A stretch of 64,000 nt of DNA from the human T2T-CHM13v2.0 reference genome, Homo sapiens. The notes beneath the pieces are model-generated. The model saw nothing but the letters and a program-made list of their open reading frames with translations. It made no database searches and was not told where the DNA came from. The translations under genes and the position numbers were made by a program. Numbering within the stretch: position 1 is the first letter of the stretch; each line of letters opens with the position of its first letter. Location: NCBI GenBank assembly GCA_009914755.4, contig CP086569.2, positions 5,472,001 through 5,536,000 of the forward strand. The letters are read 5' to 3'. Below are positions 48,660 to 60,290 of this stretch, piece by piece.

Positions 48660-51600
48660 TAATAAAGTGGTAAACATAAAAAAGAGAAATTAGAAAAACA
48701 AACAAAACAGGAACTCAGAAGATGAAAAGTACAATAATTGAATTAAAAATTCACTAAAAGGATTCAACAACTTTGAGCAGGCAGAAAAATGAATCAGCAA
48801 AATTGAAGATAATTTAAATGAACTAGTGTGAGGAATATAGAGAAAAAATAATGAAAGAAACGAACAGAAACTGAAGTAAATGTCAAACATCAAAAAGTGT
48901 ATTAACATATACATTATGGGAATGCCAGAAGGAGAAGAGAAATGGGAAAATAAAATATTTAAATAAATAACTAATGGATGAAAAGTTAAATATGATAAAA
49001 TATATGAATCTACACACCAAAGAAGCTAAATGAACTTCAAATAGGAAAAACTAAGAGACTCACATTGAAACACATTACAATCGAACTGTTGGAATCTAAG
49101 ACAAAGAGACCTCTTGAAAGTGGCAAGATAGAAATGATTCATTTCACATAAAGAAATCTCCAATTAGATTAACAAATGATTTTTTATTAGAATCCATAAA
49201 GGCAAGCAAGAGGTGAGATGACATATTTAAAGTTCTAAAGACATAAAACTGGCAACAAAAATTCTATACTTCACAAAACTATTCTTCAAAAATAAAGGAT
49301 AATTAAAATATAACTAGATAAGCAAAAGCTGACACAGATTATTAATTGTAGAACTTCCCTGCAAGAAATACTAAAGGGAATACTTTAGGCTAAAATAAAA
49401 GAACACTAGACAAAAACTTCAAGGTATATGAAGAAATAAAGAACACTGGTAAAAGTAACTATATAGGTAAATATGAAAGGTGGTATTATCATACTTTGGG
49501 TTTGTGACTCCTTTATTTCTTCTACAATTTAAAGTCTAAATTAATAAAATTTTAATTATAAATCTATGTTAAAGGAAACATAATATGTAAGAATACGATC
49601 TGTGACTATTAAAATACAAAAGAAGAATGAAGGAGATATATAGTAGCAGTTTTTATACTACTGAAATTAAGTTGGTATTATTCAAACTAAGTTGTCTTAA
49701 GTTTAATATGCTAATTGTATTCTCCATGGTAACCAATAAGAAACAAGTAAAATGTATAAAGAAAAGAAAGAAGAAAATCAAAATGGTGAACCATTAAAAT
49801 TTTAAAAAGTAAAAATAAAGCAGTAATGGAGGAGTAGAATGAATATAAGACATACAGAAAACAAATATCTAGATGGCAAAGGTAAGCCCCTTCAAATCAA
49901 AAATTACTTTAAATATTAACAGATTAAACTCTCTAATTGAAAGGCAGATATTGGCATAAATGATGGAGAAACGTGATTTATTTATATGCTGGCTATAAGT
50001 GACACACTTTAGTTACAAATGCACAAAGAGGTTGAAATTAAAAGAATGGAAAAAGATTTTTCATGAAAATAGAAATCAAAGTGAGCTGGGGTGGCTATAT
50101 TATTGCAAAGAAAACAGACTTAAAGTAAAAAAGAAGTTACAAACACAAAGAGGATATACACTGGTAAAAGGCAAAATGTGGCAAGAAGATATAGCAATTA
50201 TAAACATATATGAACCCAACAACAGACTTCAGTGCTCCGTGTTCAATAACGGATAGAACAACCAGACAGAACTTTAATAAGGAAGTAGAGGACTTGAATA
50301 ATACTATAAAACTATTAGACCTTAAAGATATATACTGAATATTCCACCCCAAACGACCATACATTCTTTTCAAATGCATGCAGAAAATCTGTAGAACAGA
50401 TCATATTTTAGGCCGCAAACAATTTTTAATAAATTTTAAAATATTGCCATCATATAAAATATTTTATGATTATAACGGAATACAATTAGAAATCAATACC
50501 TAAAGAAAATCTAAAAACTTCATAATTATGCAGAAATTAAACCAAAACCTCTCAAACAACTAAAACATTAAAGAATAAATCATAAGGGTAATTGGAAAAT
50601 GTTAAGAAATATGCAAAACAATCTATCAAAACTTATGAGATGCAGCCAAAGCACTGCTGAGAAATCTATAGCTGCAAATGCTTAAATAAAAAAAAAAATT
50701 AAAATCTCCATTCAACAACGTAACTGTATGCCTAAAAACTATAAAAAGAACAGCAAACTAAACCAAATATTAGCAGAGGAAAGAAATAATAAATATTAGC
50801 AGGGAGGTAAATGTAACAGATAATAGAAAAGCAACAGAGAAAATTAATGAAACTGAAAGTTTTTGAAAAGATATTGACTAAGAAAAAGAAGACAAATTAA
50901 TACAATAAAAAGTAAAAGGATAACATTATTATCAACTTCATAAAAATAAAAGGATTAAAAAACATTATGAGCATTTACATATCAGAAAATTGACTAACCT
51001 AGATGATATAAACTCACTTTTAGAAAGATAAACTACCAAAACTGACACAAGAATAAATAGGAAATATGAAGAGAACAGTAAAAAGTAAACATATTAAATT
51101 GTTAATCAAGAACCTCCAAACATATAAAATTCCAAGATAGATCAGATGGGTTCATTGGTAAATTCTACCAGACGTTTAAGAAACAATTGGCACTAATTCC
51201 TTTGAAACTTTTCAAAAAAGTGGAAGAGCAGGAAATAGTTTTAAACTCATTCTGTGAGACTAACATTACCGCACCCCAAAGCCATATAAAGACAATACAA
51301 CAAAACTACAGGCTAGTTTCTTTTTGACTATAAATTTAAAAATCCTAAGCATAATATTAGAAAACCTAATTCAACAGCATATTAGAAGGATTATACATAA
51401 TATCTAAGTGGTATTTATCTCAAAAATCCAAGAGTGATTAAATATATGAAATTCAATCACTGTAATACACTATACTAACAGACCAAAGAAATAAAGCCAC
51501 ATTATCTGAATTGATACAGAATATGCATTGAATAAAATACAATATCCTTTCAGGATAAAGACATTCAAAAACTAAGAATGGAAGAAAATGTTCCCAAGAT

Positions 51601-52056
51601 TAAATAAATACCATAAACGAAATACCCACAGCTAATATCGTACTCATTTGTGAAACACTGAAAGCTCTTCTGAGGATTCCTGCTTTAGCCATTTCTATTC
51701 ATCATAGTCCTGGAAGCCCTAACAAGGAGATTATGCAGGAAAAAAACCTACAAGCACCCAAATTGGAAACTACATGGAAAATTATCTGTTTTCGCAGGTG
51801 ACCTAACATTATATGTAGAAAACCCTAAATATTACACAAAAAATAATCTGTCAGAGATAATAGACAAATGTATCAAAGTTTCAGAATACATAGTTACCAT
51901 TCAAAAATCAGTTGTATTTGTATACAGTAACAATTAAAAAATTATTCTATTTTCAATAGCATCAAAAAGAATAAAATACTTATGAATAAACTTAGCCAAG
52001 AAGGTAAAGGACATACATCAAAAAACCATAAAACATTACTGAAAGAAATTAGGGAC
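48660..52056 (+). mobile_element. Ancient L1 (L1M/L1PB-type), plus orientation, 5' part (ORF1 and ORF2 EN/RT remnants). Interrupted at 52056/52057 by the HERV-L provirus and continued at 58571
   Basis: Heavily decayed reading frames with L1 signatures: ..KAGVAILL.. (EN region near 50080), ..YKIPR.IRWVHW.ILPDV.ETIGTNSFETFQK.. (RT N-terminus near 51130), ..FISKIQE.LNI.NSITVIHYTNRPK.. (RT). A/T-rich. Confidence 0.8.
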
Positions 52057-52512
52057 TGTGATGGTTAATATTGAATGTCAACTTGATTGGATTGAAGGAT
52101 GCAAAGTATCGGTCCTGGCTGTGTCTGTGAGGGTATTGCCAAATGAGATTAACATTTGAGTCAGTGGACTGAAAAAGGCAGACCCACCCTCAACATGGGT
52201 GGGCACAATCTAATCAGTTGCCAGTGCAACCAGAATAAAAGCAGGCAGAGGAATGTGAAAAGACAAGTCTGGTTTAGTCTTGTGTCCTACATCTTTCTTC
52301 AGTGGTGGATGCTCCCTGCCCTTGAACATCAGACTCTAAGTTCTTCAGCTTTGGGACTCAAACTAGCTTACTTGCTCTGCGGCTTGCAGATGGCCTACTG
52401 TGGGACCTCACCTTGTTATTGTGTGAGTCAATACTCCTTAATAAACTCCTCTTTATATATACATCTATCCTATTAGTTCTATCCCTCCAGAGAACCCTGA
52501 CTAATACAAATT
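52057..52512 (+). repeat. HERV-L 5' LTR (MLT2-like)
   Basis: TGTGATGGTTAATATTGAATGTCAACTTGATTGG ... ccaatcagttgccagtgcaaccagaataaaagcaggcagagg ... ccctgactaataca. Homologous to 58119-58570. Confidence 0.85.
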
Positions 52513-52514
52513 TT

Positions 52515-52538
52515 GGTACCAGAAGTGGTTCTAGAGCA
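52515..52538 (+). promoter_or_regulatory. Primer binding site complementary to the tRNA-Leu (UAA-type) 3' end
   Basis: TGGTACCAGAAGTGGTTCTAGAGC lies 2-3 nt after the 5' LTR end. The tRNA-Leu 3' end ...GGGTTCGAACCCCACTCCTGGTACCA predicts TGGTACCAGGAGTGGGGTTCGAAC, which matches over about the first 14-15 nt. Confidence 0.65.
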
Positions 52539-53422
52539 ATAGAATATCAAGATGGAGTTATTTTGTTGGTTTTGGGGTTTCTGGAGTTGGCTACTTAATA
52601 TGGATTAGGCCTCAAAATGCTAAGGACTCTACTTCTAACTGTATGAAGAACACTGATAGTCCTTACCGTGAACTGTTTGGAGAGTTATGCATAATGAACA
52701 CATTTGATACTTCTGATTTCACTGCTCATGAGAGGCAAGGAGGTTAGTTACTCTACATAATACCTTTGATCATATGTGGAGAACCAAGGATATAATAAAG
52801 TTGGTTGGTTGCTTCTGAGTTCACTGGAAAGGGATGAAAGAAAATGATGAACTCAAGGATTCCAACTCCTGGCTTCAGAAGCAGACACGGAGCCTTAAAC
52901 CTTCTAAGACTGCTCTGAGTGAGAGTATTATCTCTTGTAGGAAAAGAACTGAAATTGTGGAAAATCAGACACAAGTTCTTATCATGTAAGCAGCTGACCT
53001 GCAACAAAAGGTGCATGCACAGCCTTTCCAGGTGTCTACTGTTAAAGTGAGGGCATTGATTCAAAAAGAATGGGACCCTGAAACTTAGAATGGGAATGTG
53101 TGAGAGGACCCTGATGAGGCTGGGGACATTGAGCTTGTAAACTCTGATGAGACTTTTTTGCCAGAAAACAAAAAACAGCTTCCCTATCCCCAGTAGTGGC
53201 AATATCCCCCCTGCCCCAACCCATGCTGCCATCAGCCTTTCCACCTTTGTCTGAGGAGATAAACCCTGCACTGCCTGAGGCAACAATGATGGCCTCCCCT
53301 GAGGCAGTTGTCAGCAAGACAATGCTGATTCTCCTCAGGAGCCACCCCCAACACCCCTGTTTGCATCTAGTCCTGTAACTAGACTAAAGTCCTGGCTGGG
53401 CCCCAGAGGTGAGGTTCAGAGT

Positions 53423-54290
53423 GTGACACACGAGGAGGTACACTACACTCCAAAAGAACTGATTGAGTTTTCTAATTTTTATAAGCAGAAATCTGGAGAA
53501 CAGGCATGGGAATGGATATTAAAGGCGTGCAATAATGGTGGAAGGAACATAGAATTGGATCAGGCTGAATTTATTGATTTGGGCCCACTAAGCAGGGGCT
53601 TTGCATTCAATGTTGCAGTTTGGGGAATTAAAAAAGGTTCCAATAGTTTATTTGCTTGGTTAGCTAAAATGTGGATTAAAAGATGGCATATTGTGAATGA
53701 GCTGGAAATGCCTGATCTTCCTTGGTTTAATGTGGAGGAAGGGATCCAAAGGCTTGGTGAGATTTGGATGCAGGAGTGGATTAGTAAATTTAGACCTACT
53801 CATCCTAGCTGGGAGGGTTCAGAAGATATACCCTTGACCAATATTTTGTTAAATAGATTTGTGAGGACAGTACCTGCATCCTTGAAGAGCTCTGTTATTG
53901 CTCTTCTCTGTATGCCAGATCTTGCAGTAGGAACCACAGTCACTCAACTACAAAATGGGAATAATTGGATCCCGAGGTGGCAGAGGCCAAGTGGCAGCAC
54001 TCAAACGTCAAAGGCAAGGTGGGCATAGGTACGATAATGGAAAGCAAAGGCAGAGCAGCAATCAGAATAGTCTGACTCTTGTAGAGCTCTGGCATTGGCT
54101 AATTAATCACAGTGGTCCTAGAAGTGAAATTCACAGGAAGCCTACTGCACTCTTACTTAATTTATATAAGCAGAAAACTTCCAGGCCAAGTGAACAAAAG
54201 ACAAATTTGAATTATAAAAATAGAGAATCATGGCGCCTCCATCAATTTCCAGACTTGAACCATTTTACAGACCCAGAACCACTTGAATGA
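53423..54290 (+). CDS. HERV-L gag remnant (two overlapping frames 53423-54028 and 53955-54290, frameshifted)
   Basis: Open frames lie between the leader and protease. Assignment rests on position in the provirus. No zinc-finger motif was recognised by eye. Confidence 0.5.
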
Positions 54291-54308
54291 AGGGGAAGCC
54301 AGTTCCCC

Positions 54309-54840
54309 TTGGGGAAGGACCCCACTACACTACCAACAATTTATGCTGTTAATTTTTCTTCCATCTTTTACCAAGGAGACCTCCAGCCTTTTACCAGGGT
54401 AACTATGCATTGGGGAAAGGGAAATAATCAGACCTTACAAGGACTGGACACAGTCTCTGACCTGATGTTGATTCCCAGGGACCCAAACGTCATTGTCGTC
54501 CTCTAGTAAAAGTAGGGGCTTATGGAGGTCAGGTAATTAATGGAGATTTAGCTGAGGTCTGACTTACAGTAGGTCCAGTGGGTTCCCAGACTCATCCTGT
54601 TGTCATTTTCCCAGTGCCAGAATGCATAATTGGCATAGATATACTGAGCAGCTGGCAGAATCACCACATTGGGTCCCTGACTGGTAGGGTGAGGACTATT
54701 ATGGTGGAAAAAGCCAAATGGAAGCCATTAGAGCTGCCTCTACCTAGAGAAATAGTAAATCAAAAACAATATTGCATCCCTGGAGGAATTGCAGAGATTA
54801 CCACTACCATCAAGAACTTGAAAGACGCAGGGTGGTGATT
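54309..54840 (+). CDS. HERV-L retroviral aspartic protease remnant
   Basis: ..TLQGLDTVSDLMLIP.. (degenerate D-T/S-G active site) and ..IIGIDILSSW.. (GRD/N-like flap motif), in ORFs 54309-54506 and 54578-54838. Confidence 0.7.
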
Positions 54841-55950
54841 CCCACCACATCCCCATTCAACTTTCTTATTTGGCCTATGCAGAAAACAGGTGGGGCTTGC
54901 AGAAAGACAGTGAATAATTGTAAGCCTAACCAAGTGGTGACTCAAATTGCAGCTGCTGTACCAGATGTGGTTTCATTGCTTGAGCAAATTAACACATGTC
55001 CCAGTACCTGGAATGCAGGCATTGACTTGGCAAATGGTTTTTTCTCCATCACTGTCCATAAGGCCCATCAGAAGCAATTTGCCTTTAGCTGGCAAGGCCA
55101 GTAACATAACTTTACTGTCCTACCTGAGGGGTACATCAGCTCTCTGGCTTTGTGTCATCATTTTGTTTGAAGAGCTCTTGATTCCTTTTCCCTACCACAA
55201 GATTGATCCATTACATTGATGACATTATGCTGGCTGGATCCAGTGAGCAAAAAGTAGCAAACACACTGGACTTATTGGGAGACGTTTGTGTGCAAGAGGA
55301 TGGGAAATAAATCTGACTAAAATTCAGGGACCTTCTATCTCAGTAAAATATCTAGGGGTTATGGGGTGTGGGGTCTGTCAAGATATTCCTTCTAAATTGA
55401 AGGATGAGTTGCTGCATTTGGCCCCTCCTACAACCAAGAAAGAGGCACAACCTATTTAGATTTTGAATACAACACATTCCTCATCTGGGAGTGTTACTCT
55501 GGCTCATTTATCAAGTAACCAAAAAAGCTGCCAGTTTTGAGTGGGGTCCAGAAGAGGAGAAAGCTCTGCAACAGGTTCAGGCTGCTGTGCAAGCTGCTCT
55601 GCCACTTGGGCCATATGACCCAGCAGATCCAATAGTGCTTGAGGTGTCAGTGGCAGATAGAGGTGCTGTTTGGAGCCTTTGGCAGGTCCCCATAGGTGAA
55701 TCACAGCAGAGGCCTCTAGGATTTTGGAGCAAGGCCTTGCCATCTTCTGCAGATAACGACTCTCCTTTTGAGAGACAGCTCTTGGCCTGTTACTGCGCTT
55801 TGGTAGAAACTGAACGTTTGGATATGGGTCATCAAGTTACCATGAGACCTGAAGTGCTTATCATAAACTGCGTGCTTTCTGACCCATCTAGCCATAAAGT
55901 GGGGCATGCACAGCAGCATTCCATCATCAAATGAAAGTGGTACATATGTG
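54840..55950 (+). CDS. HERV-L reverse transcriptase remnant, frameshifted
   Basis: ..LANGFFSITVH.. (RT motif B-like, ORF 54772-55104). Y-I-D-D at 55212-55223 (LIHYIDDIMLAGSSEQ). The connection region is in ORF 55491-55934. Confidence 0.8.
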
Positions 55951-57300
55951 ATAAGACTAGAGCAAGTCCTGAGGGCACAAGTAGGTTACATGAGGAAGTG
56001 GCTCAAATGCCCATGGTCCCCATCCCTGCCACCCTGTCTTCTCTCCCCCAGCCTGCACTGATGGCCTCATGTGGAGTTCCCTATGATCAGTTGACAGAGG
56101 AAGAGAAGACAAGGGCCTGGTTTACAGATGGTTCTGCACAATATGCAGGCGCTACCTGAACATGGACAGCTGCAGCACTGTAGTCCCTTTCTCGGACATC
56201 CTTGAAGGAAAGTGGCAGAGGGAAATCTTCTCAGAGGGCAGAACCTTGAGCAGTGCACCTCATTGTGCACTTTGCTTGGAACAAGAAATAGCCAAATGCT
56301 TAATTATATACTGATTAATGAGCTGTAGCCAATGGTTTGCCCGGATGGTCAAGAACTTGGAATAAGCATGATTGGAAAATTGGTGACAAAAGAATTTTGG
56401 GAAGAGGTATGTGGATGGACCTCTCTGAGTGGTCAAAAATTGTGAAGACATTTGTATCTCATGTAAGTGCTCACCGAAGGGTGACCTGAGCAGGGGAGGA
56501 TTTTAATAATCAAGTGGATAGGATGACTCATTCTGTGGATACCACTCAGCCTCTTTCCCCAGACACTCCTGTCATCGCCCAATGGTCCCATGAACAAAGG
56601 GGCCATGGTGGCAGGGATGGAGGTTATGCATGGATTCAGCAACATGGACTTCCACTTACCAAGGTGACCTGGCTATGGCCACTGCTGAGTGCCCAATTTG
56701 CCAGCAGCAGAGACCAACACTGATCCCTCGATATGGCACCATTCCTTGGGTAATTAGCCAGCTACTTGGTGATAGGTTGATTACATTGGACCTCTTCAAT
56801 CATGGAAGGGGCAGAGGTTTGTCCTCACTGGAACAGACACTTACTCCGGATATGAGTTTGCCTATCCTGCACACAATGCTTTTGCGAAGACTACATCCAT
56901 GGATTCACGAAGGTCTTATCTACCATCATGGCATTCCACATAGCACTGCCTCTGATCAAGACACTCACCTTACAGCTAAAGAAGTGTGGCAGTGGGCTCA
57001 TGCTCATGGAATTCACTGGTTTTACCATGTTCCCCATCATCCTGAAGCAGCTGGATTAATAGGATGGTGGAATGGCCTTTTGAAGTCACAATTACAATGC
57101 CGACTAGGTGACAATACTCTGCAGGGCTGGGGAAAAGTTCTTCAGAAGGCTGTGTGTGCTCTGAATCAGCATCCAATATATGGTACTGTTTCTCCCGTAG
57201 CCAGGATTCATGGGTCCAGGAATCAAGGGGTGGAAGTGGAAGTGGCACCATTCATCATCACTTCTAGTGACCCACTAGCAAAATTTTTGCTTCCTGTTTC
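55950..57300 (+). CDS. HERV-L RNase H plus integrase remnant
   Basis: RAWFTDGSAQYAG at about 56100-56140 (RNase H). H-x3-H near 56461-56475 and CPICQQ at about 56690 (IN zinc finger). The IN core lies in the 251-aa ORF 56630-57385 (..HHGIPHSTASDQDTHLTAKEVWQWAHAHGIHWFYHVPHHPEAAGL..). Confidence 0.78.
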
Positions 57301-57774
57301 CTCGACATCATGTTCTGCTGGACTTAAGGTTGTAGTTCTGATGGAGGAATGCTGCCACCAGGAGACACAACAACAATTTCATTGAACTGTACATTAAGAT
57401 TGCCACTTGGCCACTTTGGGATCCTTCTACCTCTATGTCAACAGGCTAAGAAGAGAATTACAGTGTTGTCTGGGGTGACTGACCAGGGCTATCAAGTTAA
57501 AATCAGTCTACTACTCCACAGTGGAGGTGAGGAAGAGTATGTGTGGAATACAGAAACATTTTTAGGGTATCTCTTAGTATTACCATGCCCTGTGATTAAG
57601 GTCAATGGGAAATTACAACAGTCCAATCCAGGCAGGACTACAAATGGCCCAGACCTTTCAGGAATGAAGGTTTTGGTCATTGCACCAGGTGAAAAAACAC
57701 AACCTGCTAAAGTGTGTGCTGAAGGTAAAGGGAATACAGAATGGGTAGTAGAGAAAAGCGGTCATCAAAATTAG
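57290..57774 (+). CDS. dUTPase domain at the 3' end of pol (ERV-L hallmark)
   Basis: ORF 57349-57774: ..GVTDQGYQVKISLLLHSGGEEEYVW.. corresponds to dUTPase motif 3 (G.ID.DYRGE..V.L.N). Upstream, SAGLKVV corresponds to motif 1 (AGxDL). Its location after integrase matches the published ERV-L/MuERV-L organisation. Confidence 0.7.
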
Positions 57775-58118
57775 CTACAACCACGTGACCAGTTGCAGAA
57801 TCAAGGACTGTAATTGTCATGAGTATTTTCTTCTTATTTTGTTAAGAACATGTTTGTGCATGTATACACTGTACTAAGAAAATATCTTCAATTTATTTCC
57901 TTTTTATTTTATCATGTGACATAAGATTTATTGACTTCATATCAACATTTAAGTGTTATTAACTATGTAATAGCATTTGTGTTAGCGATTGGTGCATTTC
58001 CTACTGTACAAAAGACAGTTGTATTATGTTAGGTGTAATTATGACCTTATTATTGTCTTTACTTAAGATTATGTATGATTTCAGATGTGTATGAGTTCAA
58101 GTTGACAAGGGGTGGACT

Positions 58119-58570
58119 TGTGATGGTTAATGTTGAGGGTCAACTTGATTGGATCGAGGATGCAAAGTATTGCTCCTGAGTGTGTCTGTGAGGGTGTTGC
58201 CAAAGGAGATTAACATTTGAATAATTGGATTGGGAAAGGCAGATCCACCCTCAATATGGGTGGGCACAATCTAATCAGCTGCCAGTGCAGCCAGAATAAA
58301 AGCAGGCAAAAGAAAATGAAAAGACTAGACTAGTTTAGTCTTCTGGCCTACATCTTTCTCCCATGCTGGAAGCTTCCTGCCCTTGAACGTCAGACTCCAA
58401 GTTCTTCAGCTTTGGGAACCGGACTAGCTTCCTTGCTCCTCAGCTTGCAGACTTCTTATTGTGAGACCTCACCTTGTGATTGTGTGAATCAGTATTCCCT
58501 AATAAATTCCCCTTTACATATACATCTATCCTATTAGGTCTGTCCCTCTAGAGAACCCTAATAGATACAC
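58119..58570 (+). repeat. HERV-L 3' LTR (MLT2-like). It is preceded by a purine-rich tract (..caaggggtggac)
   Basis: TGTGATGGTTAATGTTGAGGGTCAACTTGATTGG ... ccaatcagctgccagtgcagccagaataaaagcaggcaaaag ... ccctaatagataca. Homologous to 52057-52512. Confidence 0.85.
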
Positions 58571-60290
58571 AAAAAGTAAATGAAAAGACATCTGTGTTGT
58601 TAAGAGGACAATAGTCCCCAAAGCGACATACAGGTTCAATACAATTTGATTTTTCTTTAATATATAATTTTTTTTAATAGAGATGTGGTCTATGTTGCCC
58701 AGGCTGTCCTGAACTCCTGGGCTCAAGCAATCTTCCTGCCTTCACCTCCCAAAGTGCTAAGATTGCAAACATGGTCCACAATGCCCAGCCCACAATTTTT
58801 TAATGGCCTTTTAAAAAAATGCATGATTTTAAAAATAGAATTATCTATTCCAAAATTCACATGGATTTTCATGATACCCTGAATAGCAAAAAGTAATCTC
58901 AAAAAGAAACACAAGAAACAAAGTGGAGGACTCACATGTCCTGATTTCAAAACTTACTATAGTACACAAAACATAGTATGGTTCTCACATAGGGATATAC
59001 AAAAAGGCCAAGAGAATAGAAATGAGAGCTCGGAAGTAAACCTTCGCATATATCACTAATTGATTTATAACAAAGTGCCAAGGCTATTCAATGTGGAAGG
59101 AAAGTTGTTCAACAAATGGAGCTGATAAAACTGGATATGCAAATGTATTGAATGACGTGAAATCTTTACTTTACAGCGTATCTGAAAATAGCTCAAAATG
59201 AATGAAAGACCTAAATTGAAGAGGTGAGACTCCAAAATTCTTAGTAGAAATCATAGGAACAAATTTTCATGACCCTTTATTTGGCAATAGTTACTTAAAT
59301 ATCATACCAAAACTACAATTAAGAGAAAAAAAAGGTAAATTCGACTTCATAAAAATTAACTTTTGTATATCAAAGGACACTATCAAGATAATGAAAACAC
59401 AACCCACAGAATTGAAGAATATATTTGCAGATAATATCTTAAGATTTAACATCTAGAATATATAAAGAACTCTTACAAAAAGGTAACTCAATTAAAAATG
59501 GTCAAAGTACTTCAACAGACATTGTTCCACAGAAGATATATAAATGGCTAATAAGCATATGAAAATATTCTTAGCATCATTAGTCTTATGAAAATGCAAA
59601 TCAAAACTACAATGAGATACCACTCCCCACCCACTAGAATGGCTACTAAAAAATATTCAAAAATAACATCAATTGTAATGGATGTGGGGAAATTGGAACT
59701 TTTTGCATTACTTGTGCAAATGCAAAATGTTGCAGCCTCCATCAAAAGCAGAGTTTGAGAGTTCCTCAAAAAGTTAAAATGTAGAATTACCATGAGGGAC
59801 TCAAACTGATAGTTGTACATGAATGTGCATAGTAACATTATTCACAATAGTCAATAGGTGGAAATAACCTGTGTGCATCAATGGATGAATGGATAAAAAA
59901 TGTATATTTATATAATAGAATATTATTCAGGCATTAAAAGGGATGAAGTTTTGATACACACTGCAACATAGATAAACCTTAAAAACATCTATTTTAAATA
60001 AAGTAAGCCAGACACAAAAGGACAAAAATGAACCATGTAAAACAGACAAAAATGTAGAGATAGAAAACAGAGGTTTCCAGTGGTTGGCAGGAAAAGCACT
60101 GGAGATTTATTGCTTAACAGGTTTATAGTATTTGCTTAGTGTGATGAAAAATTTCTAGAAATATACAGTGGTTTTGGTGCAGAATATTGTGAATTTGTTG
60201 AATACCACTGAATTGTACAGTTAAAAATGGTTCAAATGGAACATTTTATGTCATATTTTACCACATCAAAAAATGTATAATCTCTGAAAG
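58571..60290 (+). mobile_element. Ancient L1 (continuation of 48660-52056): ORF2 C-terminal region and 3'UTR
   Basis: gtccccaaagcgacatacaggttcaatacaatt (..[13 protein letters not shown]..), aaaatgcaaatcaaaactacaatgagataccactccccacccactagaatggctac (..[15 protein letters not shown]..), ..atgaatggataaaaaatgtatattta.. (DEWIKKMWYIY). 3'UTR phrase gaataccactgaattgtacagttaaaaatggttcaaatggaacattttatgtcatattttaccaca. Confidence 0.8.
58677..58795 (-). mobile_element. Alu fragment (monomer-length), minus orientation, nested in the ancient L1
   Basis: agagatgtggtctatgttgcccaggctgtcctgaactcctgggctcaagcaatcttcctgccttcacctcccaaagtgctaagattgcaaacatggtccacaatgcccagcc. Confidence 0.85.

What the first reader, a model, noticed from the sequence alone, without database searches (positions are those of the whole stretch)
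52057..58570. Complete-ended HERV-L provirus (both LTRs, tRNA-Leu-like PBS, dUTPase after integrase) nested in an ancient L1
Two ~455-bp direct repeats that both begin TGTGATGGTTAAT flank 5.6 kb of internal sequence. The internal order of motifs is protease (LDTVSD, IIGIDIL), RT (YIDD at 55212), RNase H (TDGS), integrase (H-x3-H, CPIC) and then a dUTPase-like domain (GVTDQGYQVKISLLL) at the 3' end of pol. No env is present and the PBS matches the tRNA-Leu 3' end. A dUTPase downstream of integrase is the defining oddity of ERV-L and MuERV-L, and here it sits in an element that still has both LTRs. LTR-LTR divergence would date the insertion. The L1 ORF2 sequence resumes just outside both LTRs, so the insertion was clean.
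Basis: partly seen in the sequence, partly recalled or inferred. Interest (0 to 1): 0.5.

Follow-up and report, generated by a model that had tools for sequence, protein, structure and literature searches.

The report
Dead HERV-L (ERV-L) provirus inside L1
This is an ordinary, long-dead copy of the well-known ERV-L/HERV-L endogenous retrovirus (two LTRs, gag, pol with a dUTPase after the integrase, no env) that inserted into an older L1 element roughly 35-40 million years ago.

Summary
Window 52057-58569 is a 6.5-kb LTR retroelement. Its two LTRs (452 and 451 nt) align end to end at 85.4% identity (K2P 0.165).

Between the LTRs, all on the + strand, lie:
- a tRNA-Leu(UAA)-type primer binding site (14/18);
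- a gag remnant;
- a gag stop followed in frame by protease, RT, RNase H, integrase and then a dUTPase;
- a purine tract directly before the 3' LTR.

There is no room for env. Only about 305 nt separate the end of pol from the 3' LTR.

The closest intact relative found is mouse MuERV-L. It shows 72% amino-acid identity over the whole stitched pol and 74% nucleotide identity over 4.5 collinear kb. Its LTR end, primer binding site and purine tract are nearly the same.

The copy is dead. At least 23 stops and about 6 frame changes interrupt gag and pol, and the protease active site reads DTV instead of DTG.

The flanks are one L1 ORF2 on the + strand, and the ORF2 alignment runs straight across the insertion point.

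- the element ends at 58569, not 58570;
- the integrase zinc motif is H-x4-H, not H-x3-H;
- no clean target-site duplication can be read;
- rve falls just under Pfam's cut-off, and dUTPase passes only after frameshift stitching.

This is a known kind of element, of which humans carry on the order of 200 proviruses. Interest is low.

The parts
52057..52508 (+). 5' LTR (452 nt), TG...CA ends. AATAAA at 52440. DUX4-like CAATCTAATCA at 52206-52216.
   Evidence: The last ~70 nt of the LTR, aligned together with the primer binding site region (window 52440-52544), are 81% identical to the MuERV-L LTR end in L001.
52514..52531 (+). Primer binding site, TGGTACCAGAAGTGGTTC
   Evidence: 14/18 to the reverse complement of the tRNA-Leu-TAA-1-1 3' end (tRNA sequence from PMC10359600). 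One mismatch in 23 nt to the MuERV-L site TGGTACCAGGAGTGGTTCTAGAG.
52552..54290 (+). gag remnant: ATG at 52552, TGA at 54288-54290. Three reading frames, 3 internal stops, no CCHC zinc finger.
   Evidence: tblastn with MuERV-L gag: 45-54% identity over residues 87-571. No Pfam hit. CCHC scan negative.
54291..54700 (+). Protease remnant, in frame after the gag stop. The active site reads LDTVSD (54444) where MuERV-L has LLDTGSE. IIGIDIL at 54626.
   Evidence: 81% identity to MuERV-L pol residues 8-124. No Pfam RVP hit.
54988..55360 (+). Reverse transcriptase core (YIDD at 55212-55223), split over three frames
   Evidence: Pfam RVT_1 at 61 bits, E 1.6e-16, on the stitched sequence. PDB: MLV/XMRV RT and foamy virus PR-RT.
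55542..55841 (+). RT connection / RNase H-like domain
   Evidence: Pfam RT_RNaseH_2 at 40-43 bits, above the cut-off.
56112..56531 (+). RNase H (TDGS at 56124)
   Evidence: Pfam RNase_H at 37.2 bits, cut-off 25.8. PDB RNase H hits.
56589..57043 (+). Integrase: HHCC zinc motif (HEQRGH at 56589, CPIC at 56690) and catalytic core 56758-57043, split over three frames
   Evidence: Pfam rve at 29.7 bits, E 7.8e-7, cut-off 32.6. The best PDB hits are prototype foamy virus integrase, E 2.6e-11.
57290..57603 (+). dUTPase-like domain at the C-terminus of pol (GVTDQGYQVKISLLL at 57472). The pol homology ends at 57810.
   Evidence: Pfam dUTPase at 25.9 bits, E 9e-6, cut-off 22. PDB FIV dUTPase, E 1.4e-6. 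60% identity to MuERV-L pol residues 966-1124 in one frame.
58107..58117 (+). Polypurine-tract-like AAGGGGTGGAC next to the 3' LTR
   Evidence: Read directly. MuERV-L has GACAAGGGGTGGAT at the same place.
58119..58569 (+). 3' LTR (451 nt). AATAAA at 58501. CAATCTAATCA at 58267-58277.
51600..52056 (+). Upstream L1 ORF2 remnant (host element), ending ...LLKEIRD
   Evidence: PDB phmmer hit to LINE-1 ORF2p residues 667-828, E 1e-24, spanning the insertion point.
58570..59760 (+). Downstream continuation of the same L1 ORF2, interrupted by an Alu-monomer-like piece at about 58671-58790

Best explanation
The region 52057-58569 is a full-length but inactivated class III (spuma-like) endogenous retrovirus of the ERV-L family. 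It would be called HERV-L if the window is human.

Inferred history. An ERV-L RNA was reverse transcribed, primed from a tRNA-Leu(UAA) on the primer binding site. The DNA copy, with two identical LTRs, was integrated by its own integrase into the ORF2 of an already resident L1 on the same strand. With no env gene, the family spread by intracellular retrotransposition in the germ line.

Since integration the two LTRs have diverged by about 15%. That corresponds to roughly 35-40 million years at about 0.4% LTR-to-LTR divergence per million years. gag and pol have collected stops and frameshifts, so nothing in this copy can be translated into a working protein.

What is shown: the anatomy, the homologies, the decay and the L1 host. 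What is inferred from established retrovirus biology: the replication steps, and the age, which depends on the substitution rate assumed.
For: LTR pair.

Primer binding site: 14/18 to tRNA-Leu-TAA, and one mismatch in 23 nt to the MuERV-L site.

Pfam on the frame-stitched pol: RVT_1 61 bits, RT_RNaseH_2 43, RNase_H 37, rve 29.7, dUTPase 25.9.

PDB hits lie in the order RT, RNase H, IN, dUTPase. Foamy virus integrase is the best integrase match.

The best database protein, P0001, is an intact 1124-aa pol with the same Pfam set. It is 72% identical over 100% of the query. Its contigs carry gag, then pol, with no env. They are MuERV-L by exact match to the published primers.

The DNA is collinear with MuERV-L at 74.4% identity over 53366-57813.

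The layout of a gag stop followed in frame by pro-pol is shared with MuERV-L.

At least 23 stops lie inside the homology segments, which sit in three frames.

The L1 ORF2p alignment crosses the junction.

Literature: the dUTPase lies C-terminal of the integrase in MuERV-L (PMC1224870). Nearly all HERVL have it. HERVL is paired with MLT2 LTRs at about 200 copies, and class III LTR divergence is 13-42% (PMC4724089).
Against: - No unambiguous 5-bp target-site duplication. The 5' flank reads GGGAC, but CAAAA follows the 3' LTR. GGGAC/GATAC (3/5) fits only if the 3' LTR lost its last bases.
- rve is 3 bits under Pfam's gathering score.
- The protease and gag have no Pfam hit.
- The RT's best PDB matches are gammaretroviral (MLV/XMRV) rather than foamy.
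- The MLT2 identity of the LTR was not tested against a repeat library.
- Published assignments of the primer binding site in HERVL are themselves split: 35 Leu and 33 Met among 87 chains (PMC4724089).
Confidence: 0.96

Rival explanations
1. It is a class III ERV of a sister subfamily (for example an ERVL-B4, ERVL-E or HERVL40-type internal region with MLT2B-F LTRs) rather than HERV-L proper with MLT2A LTRs.
For: No repeat library was available, so the subfamily was never tested. Identity to MuERV-L (72% aa) shows family membership but not subfamily.
Against: The dUTPase is present, whereas HERVL32, HERVL66 and HERVS lack it (PMC4724089). The total length of 6.5 kb, the ~450-nt LTRs and the end-of-LTR sequence GAGAACCCTGACTAATACA, identical to that of MuERV-L, fit HERV-L. 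An LTR divergence of 14.6% lies at the young end of the class III range, as expected for the primate HERV-L burst.
Confidence: 0.12
2. Part of the element is still functional for the host: an LTR acting as a cleavage-stage (DUX4-driven) promoter, or a surviving ORF that is expressed (201-aa gag piece at 53423-54028, 251-aa integrase piece at 56630-57385).
For: Both LTRs keep CAATCTAATCA, 10/11 to the DUX4 consensus. MLT2A1/HERVL are DUX4 targets in human embryos (PMC6341076).
Against: The first T of the DUX4 motif is changed in both LTRs. The ORFs are fragments of decayed genes in different frames, and the 251-aa ORF itself runs out of frame through the first half of the integrase core. No expression or conservation data are available here.
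Confidence: 0.05
3. The two repeats are not LTRs of one insertion but two independent solo LTRs, or the product of recombination between two different proviruses.
For: The missing clean target-site duplication is what a recombinant provirus would show.
Against: The L1 ORF2 reading continues across the element with no loss or gain of more than a few bases. This would not be expected if the two ends came from different integration sites. The internal region is collinear with MuERV-L from gag to the end of pol.
Confidence: 0.03

Closest known systems
HERV-L (HERVL-int with MLT2-type LTRs), class III human endogenous retrovirus (Cordonnier 1995; Vargiu 2016, PMC4724089)
   Same: Length of 6.5 kb and LTRs of about 450 nt with TGTGATGG...ATACA ends. 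Leu-type primer binding site. gag without a zinc finger. pol with the dUTPase after the integrase. No env. LTR divergence within the published 13-42% for class III.
   Different: Nothing in kind. This copy is one decayed member. The LTR subfamily was not determined.
MuERV-L / MERVL (mouse; Benit 1997), represented here by loci L001-L004 and protein P0001
   Same: The layout of gag, stop, then in-frame pro-pol-dUTPase, with no env. 72% aa identity in pol, 45-54% in gag, and 74% nt identity over 4.5 kb. Nearly identical LTR 3' end, primer binding site and purine tract.
   Different: MuERV-L has intact ORFs and a different LTR body (MT2). In the window, only the LTR termini are alignable. The window copy has at least 23 stops and about 6 frame changes, and the protease DTG has become DTV.
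Foamy viruses (Spumaretrovirinae)
   Same: The integrase core's best solved relatives are prototype foamy virus integrase (E 2.6e-11). This is the basis of the 'class III / spuma-like' label.
   Different: Foamy viruses have env and accessory genes and no dUTPase. The RT part matches MLV/XMRV RT slightly better than foamy PR-RT.

Membership tests
ERV-L / HERV-L (class III ERV) | Two direct LTRs with TG...CA termini flanking about 5.5 kb | tested here: met
   52057-52508 and 58119-58569; 85.4% identity; one gap column.
ERV-L / HERV-L (class III ERV) | LTRs of the MLT2 (primate) / MT2 (mouse) family | not testable with these tools
   No Dfam/Repbase library. Indirect support only: the LTR 3' ends (window 52440-52544 and 58501-58559) are about 80% identical to the MuERV-L LTR end, and the first ~30 nt of the 3' LTR lie within a 69%-identical segment (57993-58148) that also covers the region before the LTR.
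ERV-L / HERV-L (class III ERV) | Primer binding site complementary to tRNA-Leu | tested here: met
   14/18 to tRNA-Leu-TAA (14/15 over the core). The next best Leu isoacceptor scores 12/18. One mismatch to the MuERV-L site. Caveat: published calls for HERVL are split between Leu and Met.
ERV-L / HERV-L (class III ERV) | dUTPase domain C-terminal to the integrase within pol | tested here: met
   Pfam dUTPase at 25.9 bits (cut-off 22) at 57290-57603, downstream of rve at 56758-57043. FIV dUTPase, E 1.4e-6.
ERV-L / HERV-L (class III ERV) | No env gene | tested here: met
   pol homology ends at 57810 and the 3' LTR starts at 58119. The ~305 nt between them partly align to the MuERV-L 3' untranslated region.
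ERV-L / HERV-L (class III ERV) | gag of the MuERV-L/Fv1 type, without a CCHC zinc finger | tested here: met
   45-54% identity to MuERV-L gag over residues 87-571. No CCHC motif in any + frame. Similarity to Fv1 itself was not tested.
ERV-L / HERV-L (class III ERV) | pol closest to ERV-L/MuERV-L and, among exogenous viruses, to foamy viruses | tested here: inconclusive
   The top hit is MuERV-L pol at 72%. The integrase is closest to PFV integrase, but the RT scores slightly higher with MLV/XMRV RT than with PFV PR-RT. No phylogeny was made.
ERV-L / HERV-L (class III ERV) | 5-bp target-site duplication | tested here: inconclusive
   GGGAC lies before the 5' LTR and CAAAA after ...ATACA. The candidate pair GGGAC/GATAC requires a truncated 3' LTR end.
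MaLR (THE1/MST/MLT1) | Non-autonomous: LTRs around a short internal region without pol | tested here: not met
   A full gag-pro-pol is present.

The most novel reading that the evidence does not exclude
This copy, which sits at the young end of class III LTR divergence and keeps a near-consensus DUX4 motif in both LTRs, is still used as a cleavage-stage promoter or enhancer. Alternatively, one of its surviving ORFs is expressed in early embryos.
Probability: 0.05. Interest if true: 0.2.

Novelty: already known. Interest (0 to 1): 0.07.

Why it matters
It matters little beyond correct annotation. HERV-L proviruses with both LTRs and the post-integrase dUTPase have been described since 1995, and any RepeatMasker run annotates them. 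The nested order is a small, usable dating constraint for this locus: the L1 is oldest, the ERV-L came in about 35-40 million years ago, and the Alu-like piece nearby lies within the L1. The LTRs belong to a family known to be switched on by DUX4 at human embryonic genome activation, but nothing here shows that this copy takes part.

Tried and rejected
- Pfam on raw three-frame translations of 52509-58118 found only RT_RNaseH_2, RNase_H and a weak RVT_1. rve and dUTPase appeared only after I stitched the frames by eye. The protease and gag pieces gave no Pfam hit.
- Rfam at gathering thresholds and ARAGORN found nothing in the whole window, so there is no tRNA gene to compare with the primer binding site. 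I took the tRNA-Leu sequence from PMC10359600 instead.
I used stitched peptides against the PDB instead.
- The original HERV-L and ERV-L papers (PMID 7543594, PMC104094) are not held.
- I tried to read a target-site duplication three ways (full 3' LTR; truncated 3' LTR with GGGAC/GATAC; no duplication). None is clean.
- I searched the window for a second L1 copy covering the junction to reconstruct the target. None was found.
- I considered and rejected MaLR, because pol is present, and a chance repeat, because the pair is 450 nt at 85% identity.
- The answer did not depend on them.
Full report
**1. The observation**

The region holds two long direct repeats. The repeat finder gave a 300-nt core pair at 85% identity, 6061 nt apart. 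MAFFT extended this to full-length units: 52057-52508 (452 nt) and 58119-58569 (451 nt). Both begin TGTGATGGTTAAT and end ...ATACA.

The two units align with a single gap column and 66 differences in 451 sites (44 transitions, 22 transversions). That gives a p-distance of 14.6% and a K2P of 0.165. Leaving out CpG sites barely changes the figure: an earlier run whose coordinates were shifted by one base gave 0.158 without CpG sites against 0.168 with them. blastn of the LTR against the whole window finds only these two copies.

**2. What lies between the repeats**

Five bases after the 5' LTR comes TGGTACCAGAAGTGGTTC (52514-52531). It matches the reverse complement of the last 18 nt of human tRNA-Leu-TAA-1-1 at 14 of 18 positions, and at 14 of 15 over the core. 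The tRNA sequence was checked in PMC10359600. The chance of 14 or more matches in 18 at one fixed alignment position is 4e-6; the best of ten offsets was taken.

An ATG at 52552 opens a gag remnant that ends at TGA 54288-54290. The next codons continue in the same frame into the protease.

The pol domains are spread over three frames. Raw frame translations gave only RT_RNaseH_2, RNase_H and a weak RVT_1. After stitching, Pfam gave:

| Pfam family | Bits | Cut-off | E-value |
|---|---|---|---|
| RVT_1 | 61 | 29.6 | 1.6e-16 |
| RT_RNaseH_2 | 43 | 29.8 | 4.8e-11 |
| rve | 29.7 | 32.6 | 7.8e-7 |
| dUTPase | 25.9 | 22 | 9e-6 |

phmmer of the stitched 1025-aa pol against the PDB placed the hits in this order:
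- RT/RNase H at residues 14-541, matching XMRV/MLV RT and foamy PR-RT;
- RNase H at 470-611;
- integrase core at 688-823, with prototype foamy virus integrase best at E 2.6e-11;
- dUTPase at 861-979, with FIV dUTPase at E 1.4e-6.

One detail differs: the zinc motif is HEQRGH, which is H-x4-H.

pol homology stops at 57810. About 305 nt later a purine tract, AAGGGGTGGAC (58107-58117), abuts the 3' LTR. There is no space for env.

**3. Relatives**

One search of the large protein collection returned an intact 1124-aa protein, P0001. It is 72% identical over 100% of the query and carries the same Pfam set, including dUTPase. The next hits, at 35-38%, are uncharacterised proteins with the same Pfam domain set from amphibians, fish and birds.

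P0001 is encoded on contigs of about 6.1 kb that carry a 571-581-aa upstream ORF (gag, with no Pfam hit), then pol, and nothing else. The published MuERVL qPCR primers match these contigs exactly and in convergent orientation. The primers are quoted in PMC4829419. The contigs are therefore mouse MuERV-L.

Comparison with locus L001:
- The window element is collinear at 74.4% nucleotide identity from 53366 to 57813.
- gag is 45-54% identical at protein level over residues 87-571.
- The LTR 3' end (GAGAACCCTGACTAATACA), the primer binding site (one mismatch in 23 nt) and the purine tract are shared.
- MuERV-L also has its gag stop followed in frame by pro-pol, so that layout is conserved.

**4. 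State of the copy**

The copy is dead. The homology to MuERV-L gag and pol is broken into nine segments in three frames. At least 23 stop codons lie inside those segments.

The protease active site reads LDTVSD where MuERV-L has LLDTGSE. The dUTPase motif 3 reads GVTDQGYQVKI where MuERV-L has GVIDPDYHGEI.

The longest ORFs are 251, 201 and 147 aa. They are fragments of the integrase, gag and the RT connection domain.

**5. Surroundings**

A peptide stitched from the last about 120 codons before the 5' LTR and the first about 25 after the 3' LTR aligns as one stretch to human LINE-1 ORF2p residues 667-828 (E about 1e-24). The junction falls in ...LLKEIKE|ETNKWKNI.... Further downstream, 59588-59758 matches the ORF2p C-terminal region.

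So one L1, on the + strand, was split by the insertion. At most a few bases were gained or lost.

I could not read a clean 5-bp duplication:
- GGGAC precedes the 5' LTR.
- After ...ATACA of the 3' LTR comes CAAAA.
- If the 3' LTR lost its terminal bases, GATAC would be the second copy (3/5 match), and the L1 reading would continue correctly.

The last 10 nt of the 3' LTR differ from the 5' LTR at 4 positions, far above the LTR average, so something local happened there.

An Alu-monomer-like piece lies at about 58671-58790 on the minus strand. Four full Alus elsewhere in the window show a primate host.

**6. Mechanism and age**

The mechanism follows from established retrovirus biology. Minus-strand synthesis was primed by tRNA-Leu at the primer binding site, and plus-strand synthesis at the purine tract. 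This generated two identical LTRs, and the element's integrase then inserted the DNA copy. The family lacks env, so it amplified as an intracellular retrotransposon.

The age is an inference. At the 0.4% LTR-to-LTR divergence per million years used in PMC4724089, 14.6-16.5% gives about 37-41 million years. At 2.2e-9 per site per year it gives about 38 million years. The L1 must be older than the provirus.

**7. Comparison with what is known**

The anatomy is that of ERV-L:
- Jern et al. place the third retroviral dUTPase acquisition 'C-terminal of IN' in MuERV-L (PMC1224870).
- Vargiu et al. report that nearly all HERVL have a dUTPase at the pol C-terminus.
- They also report that gag lacks zinc fingers, that HERVL is paired with MLT2 LTRs at about 200 copies, and that class III LTR divergence is 13-42% (PMC4724089).

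The window copy meets every defining feature I could test. Three were left open: the LTR library identity (not testable here), the target-site duplication, and a formal pol phylogeny (both inconclusive).

**8. Verdict**

The element is an already known kind of sequence and one of many copies. Interest is low.

The only reading with any novelty is residual regulatory use of the LTRs. Both keep CAATCTAATCA, 10/11 to the DUX4 consensus, and MLT2A1/HERVL are DUX4 targets. I put that at about 5%.

Noticed in passing
window 52206-52216 and 58267-58277: Both LTRs carry CAATCTAATCA, 10/11 to the DUX4 binding consensus TAAT[T/C][T/C]AATCA. HERVL/MLT2A1 LTRs are known DUX4 targets at human embryonic genome activation. 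Binding at this copy was not tested.
   Followed up: partly
window 58560-58575 and 52052-52056: The last 10 nt of the 3' LTR differ from the 5' LTR at 4 positions (AATAGATACA against GACTAATACA), and no clean 5-bp target duplication is readable. A small local deletion or rearrangement at the 3' junction is likely.
   Followed up: partly
window 58655-58790 (minus strand): An Alu-monomer-like fragment of about 120 nt (74-88% to parts of an AluY consensus) lies next to a short T-rich stretch at about 58670-58676, inside the L1 just 3' of the provirus.
   Followed up: partly
They indicate a primate genome.
   Followed up: no
L001-L004 (ENA metagenome assemblies ERZ12802750, ERZ14864667, ERZ1755897, ERZ14241442): Contigs of about 6.1 kb in metagenome assemblies are intact mouse MuERV-L. 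The published qPCR primers match them exactly. This is host (mouse) nucleic acid assembled within metagenomes. The pol cluster has 753 member sequences.
   Followed up: partly
P0001 residues ~975-1090; window 57290-57603: Even the intact MuERV-L dUTPase departs from canonical dUTPase motifs. Motif 1 reads SAGLEV rather than AGxD. Motif 2 lacks the PRSS-type sequence. No clear motif 5 is present. Whether the ERV-L domain is an active dUTPase is not evident from sequence.
   Followed up: no
window 54288-54290; L001 1944-1946: The gag stop codon is followed in the same frame by pro-pol in both the window copy and MuERV-L. This implies read-through rather than frameshift expression of pol in this family.
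   Followed up: partly
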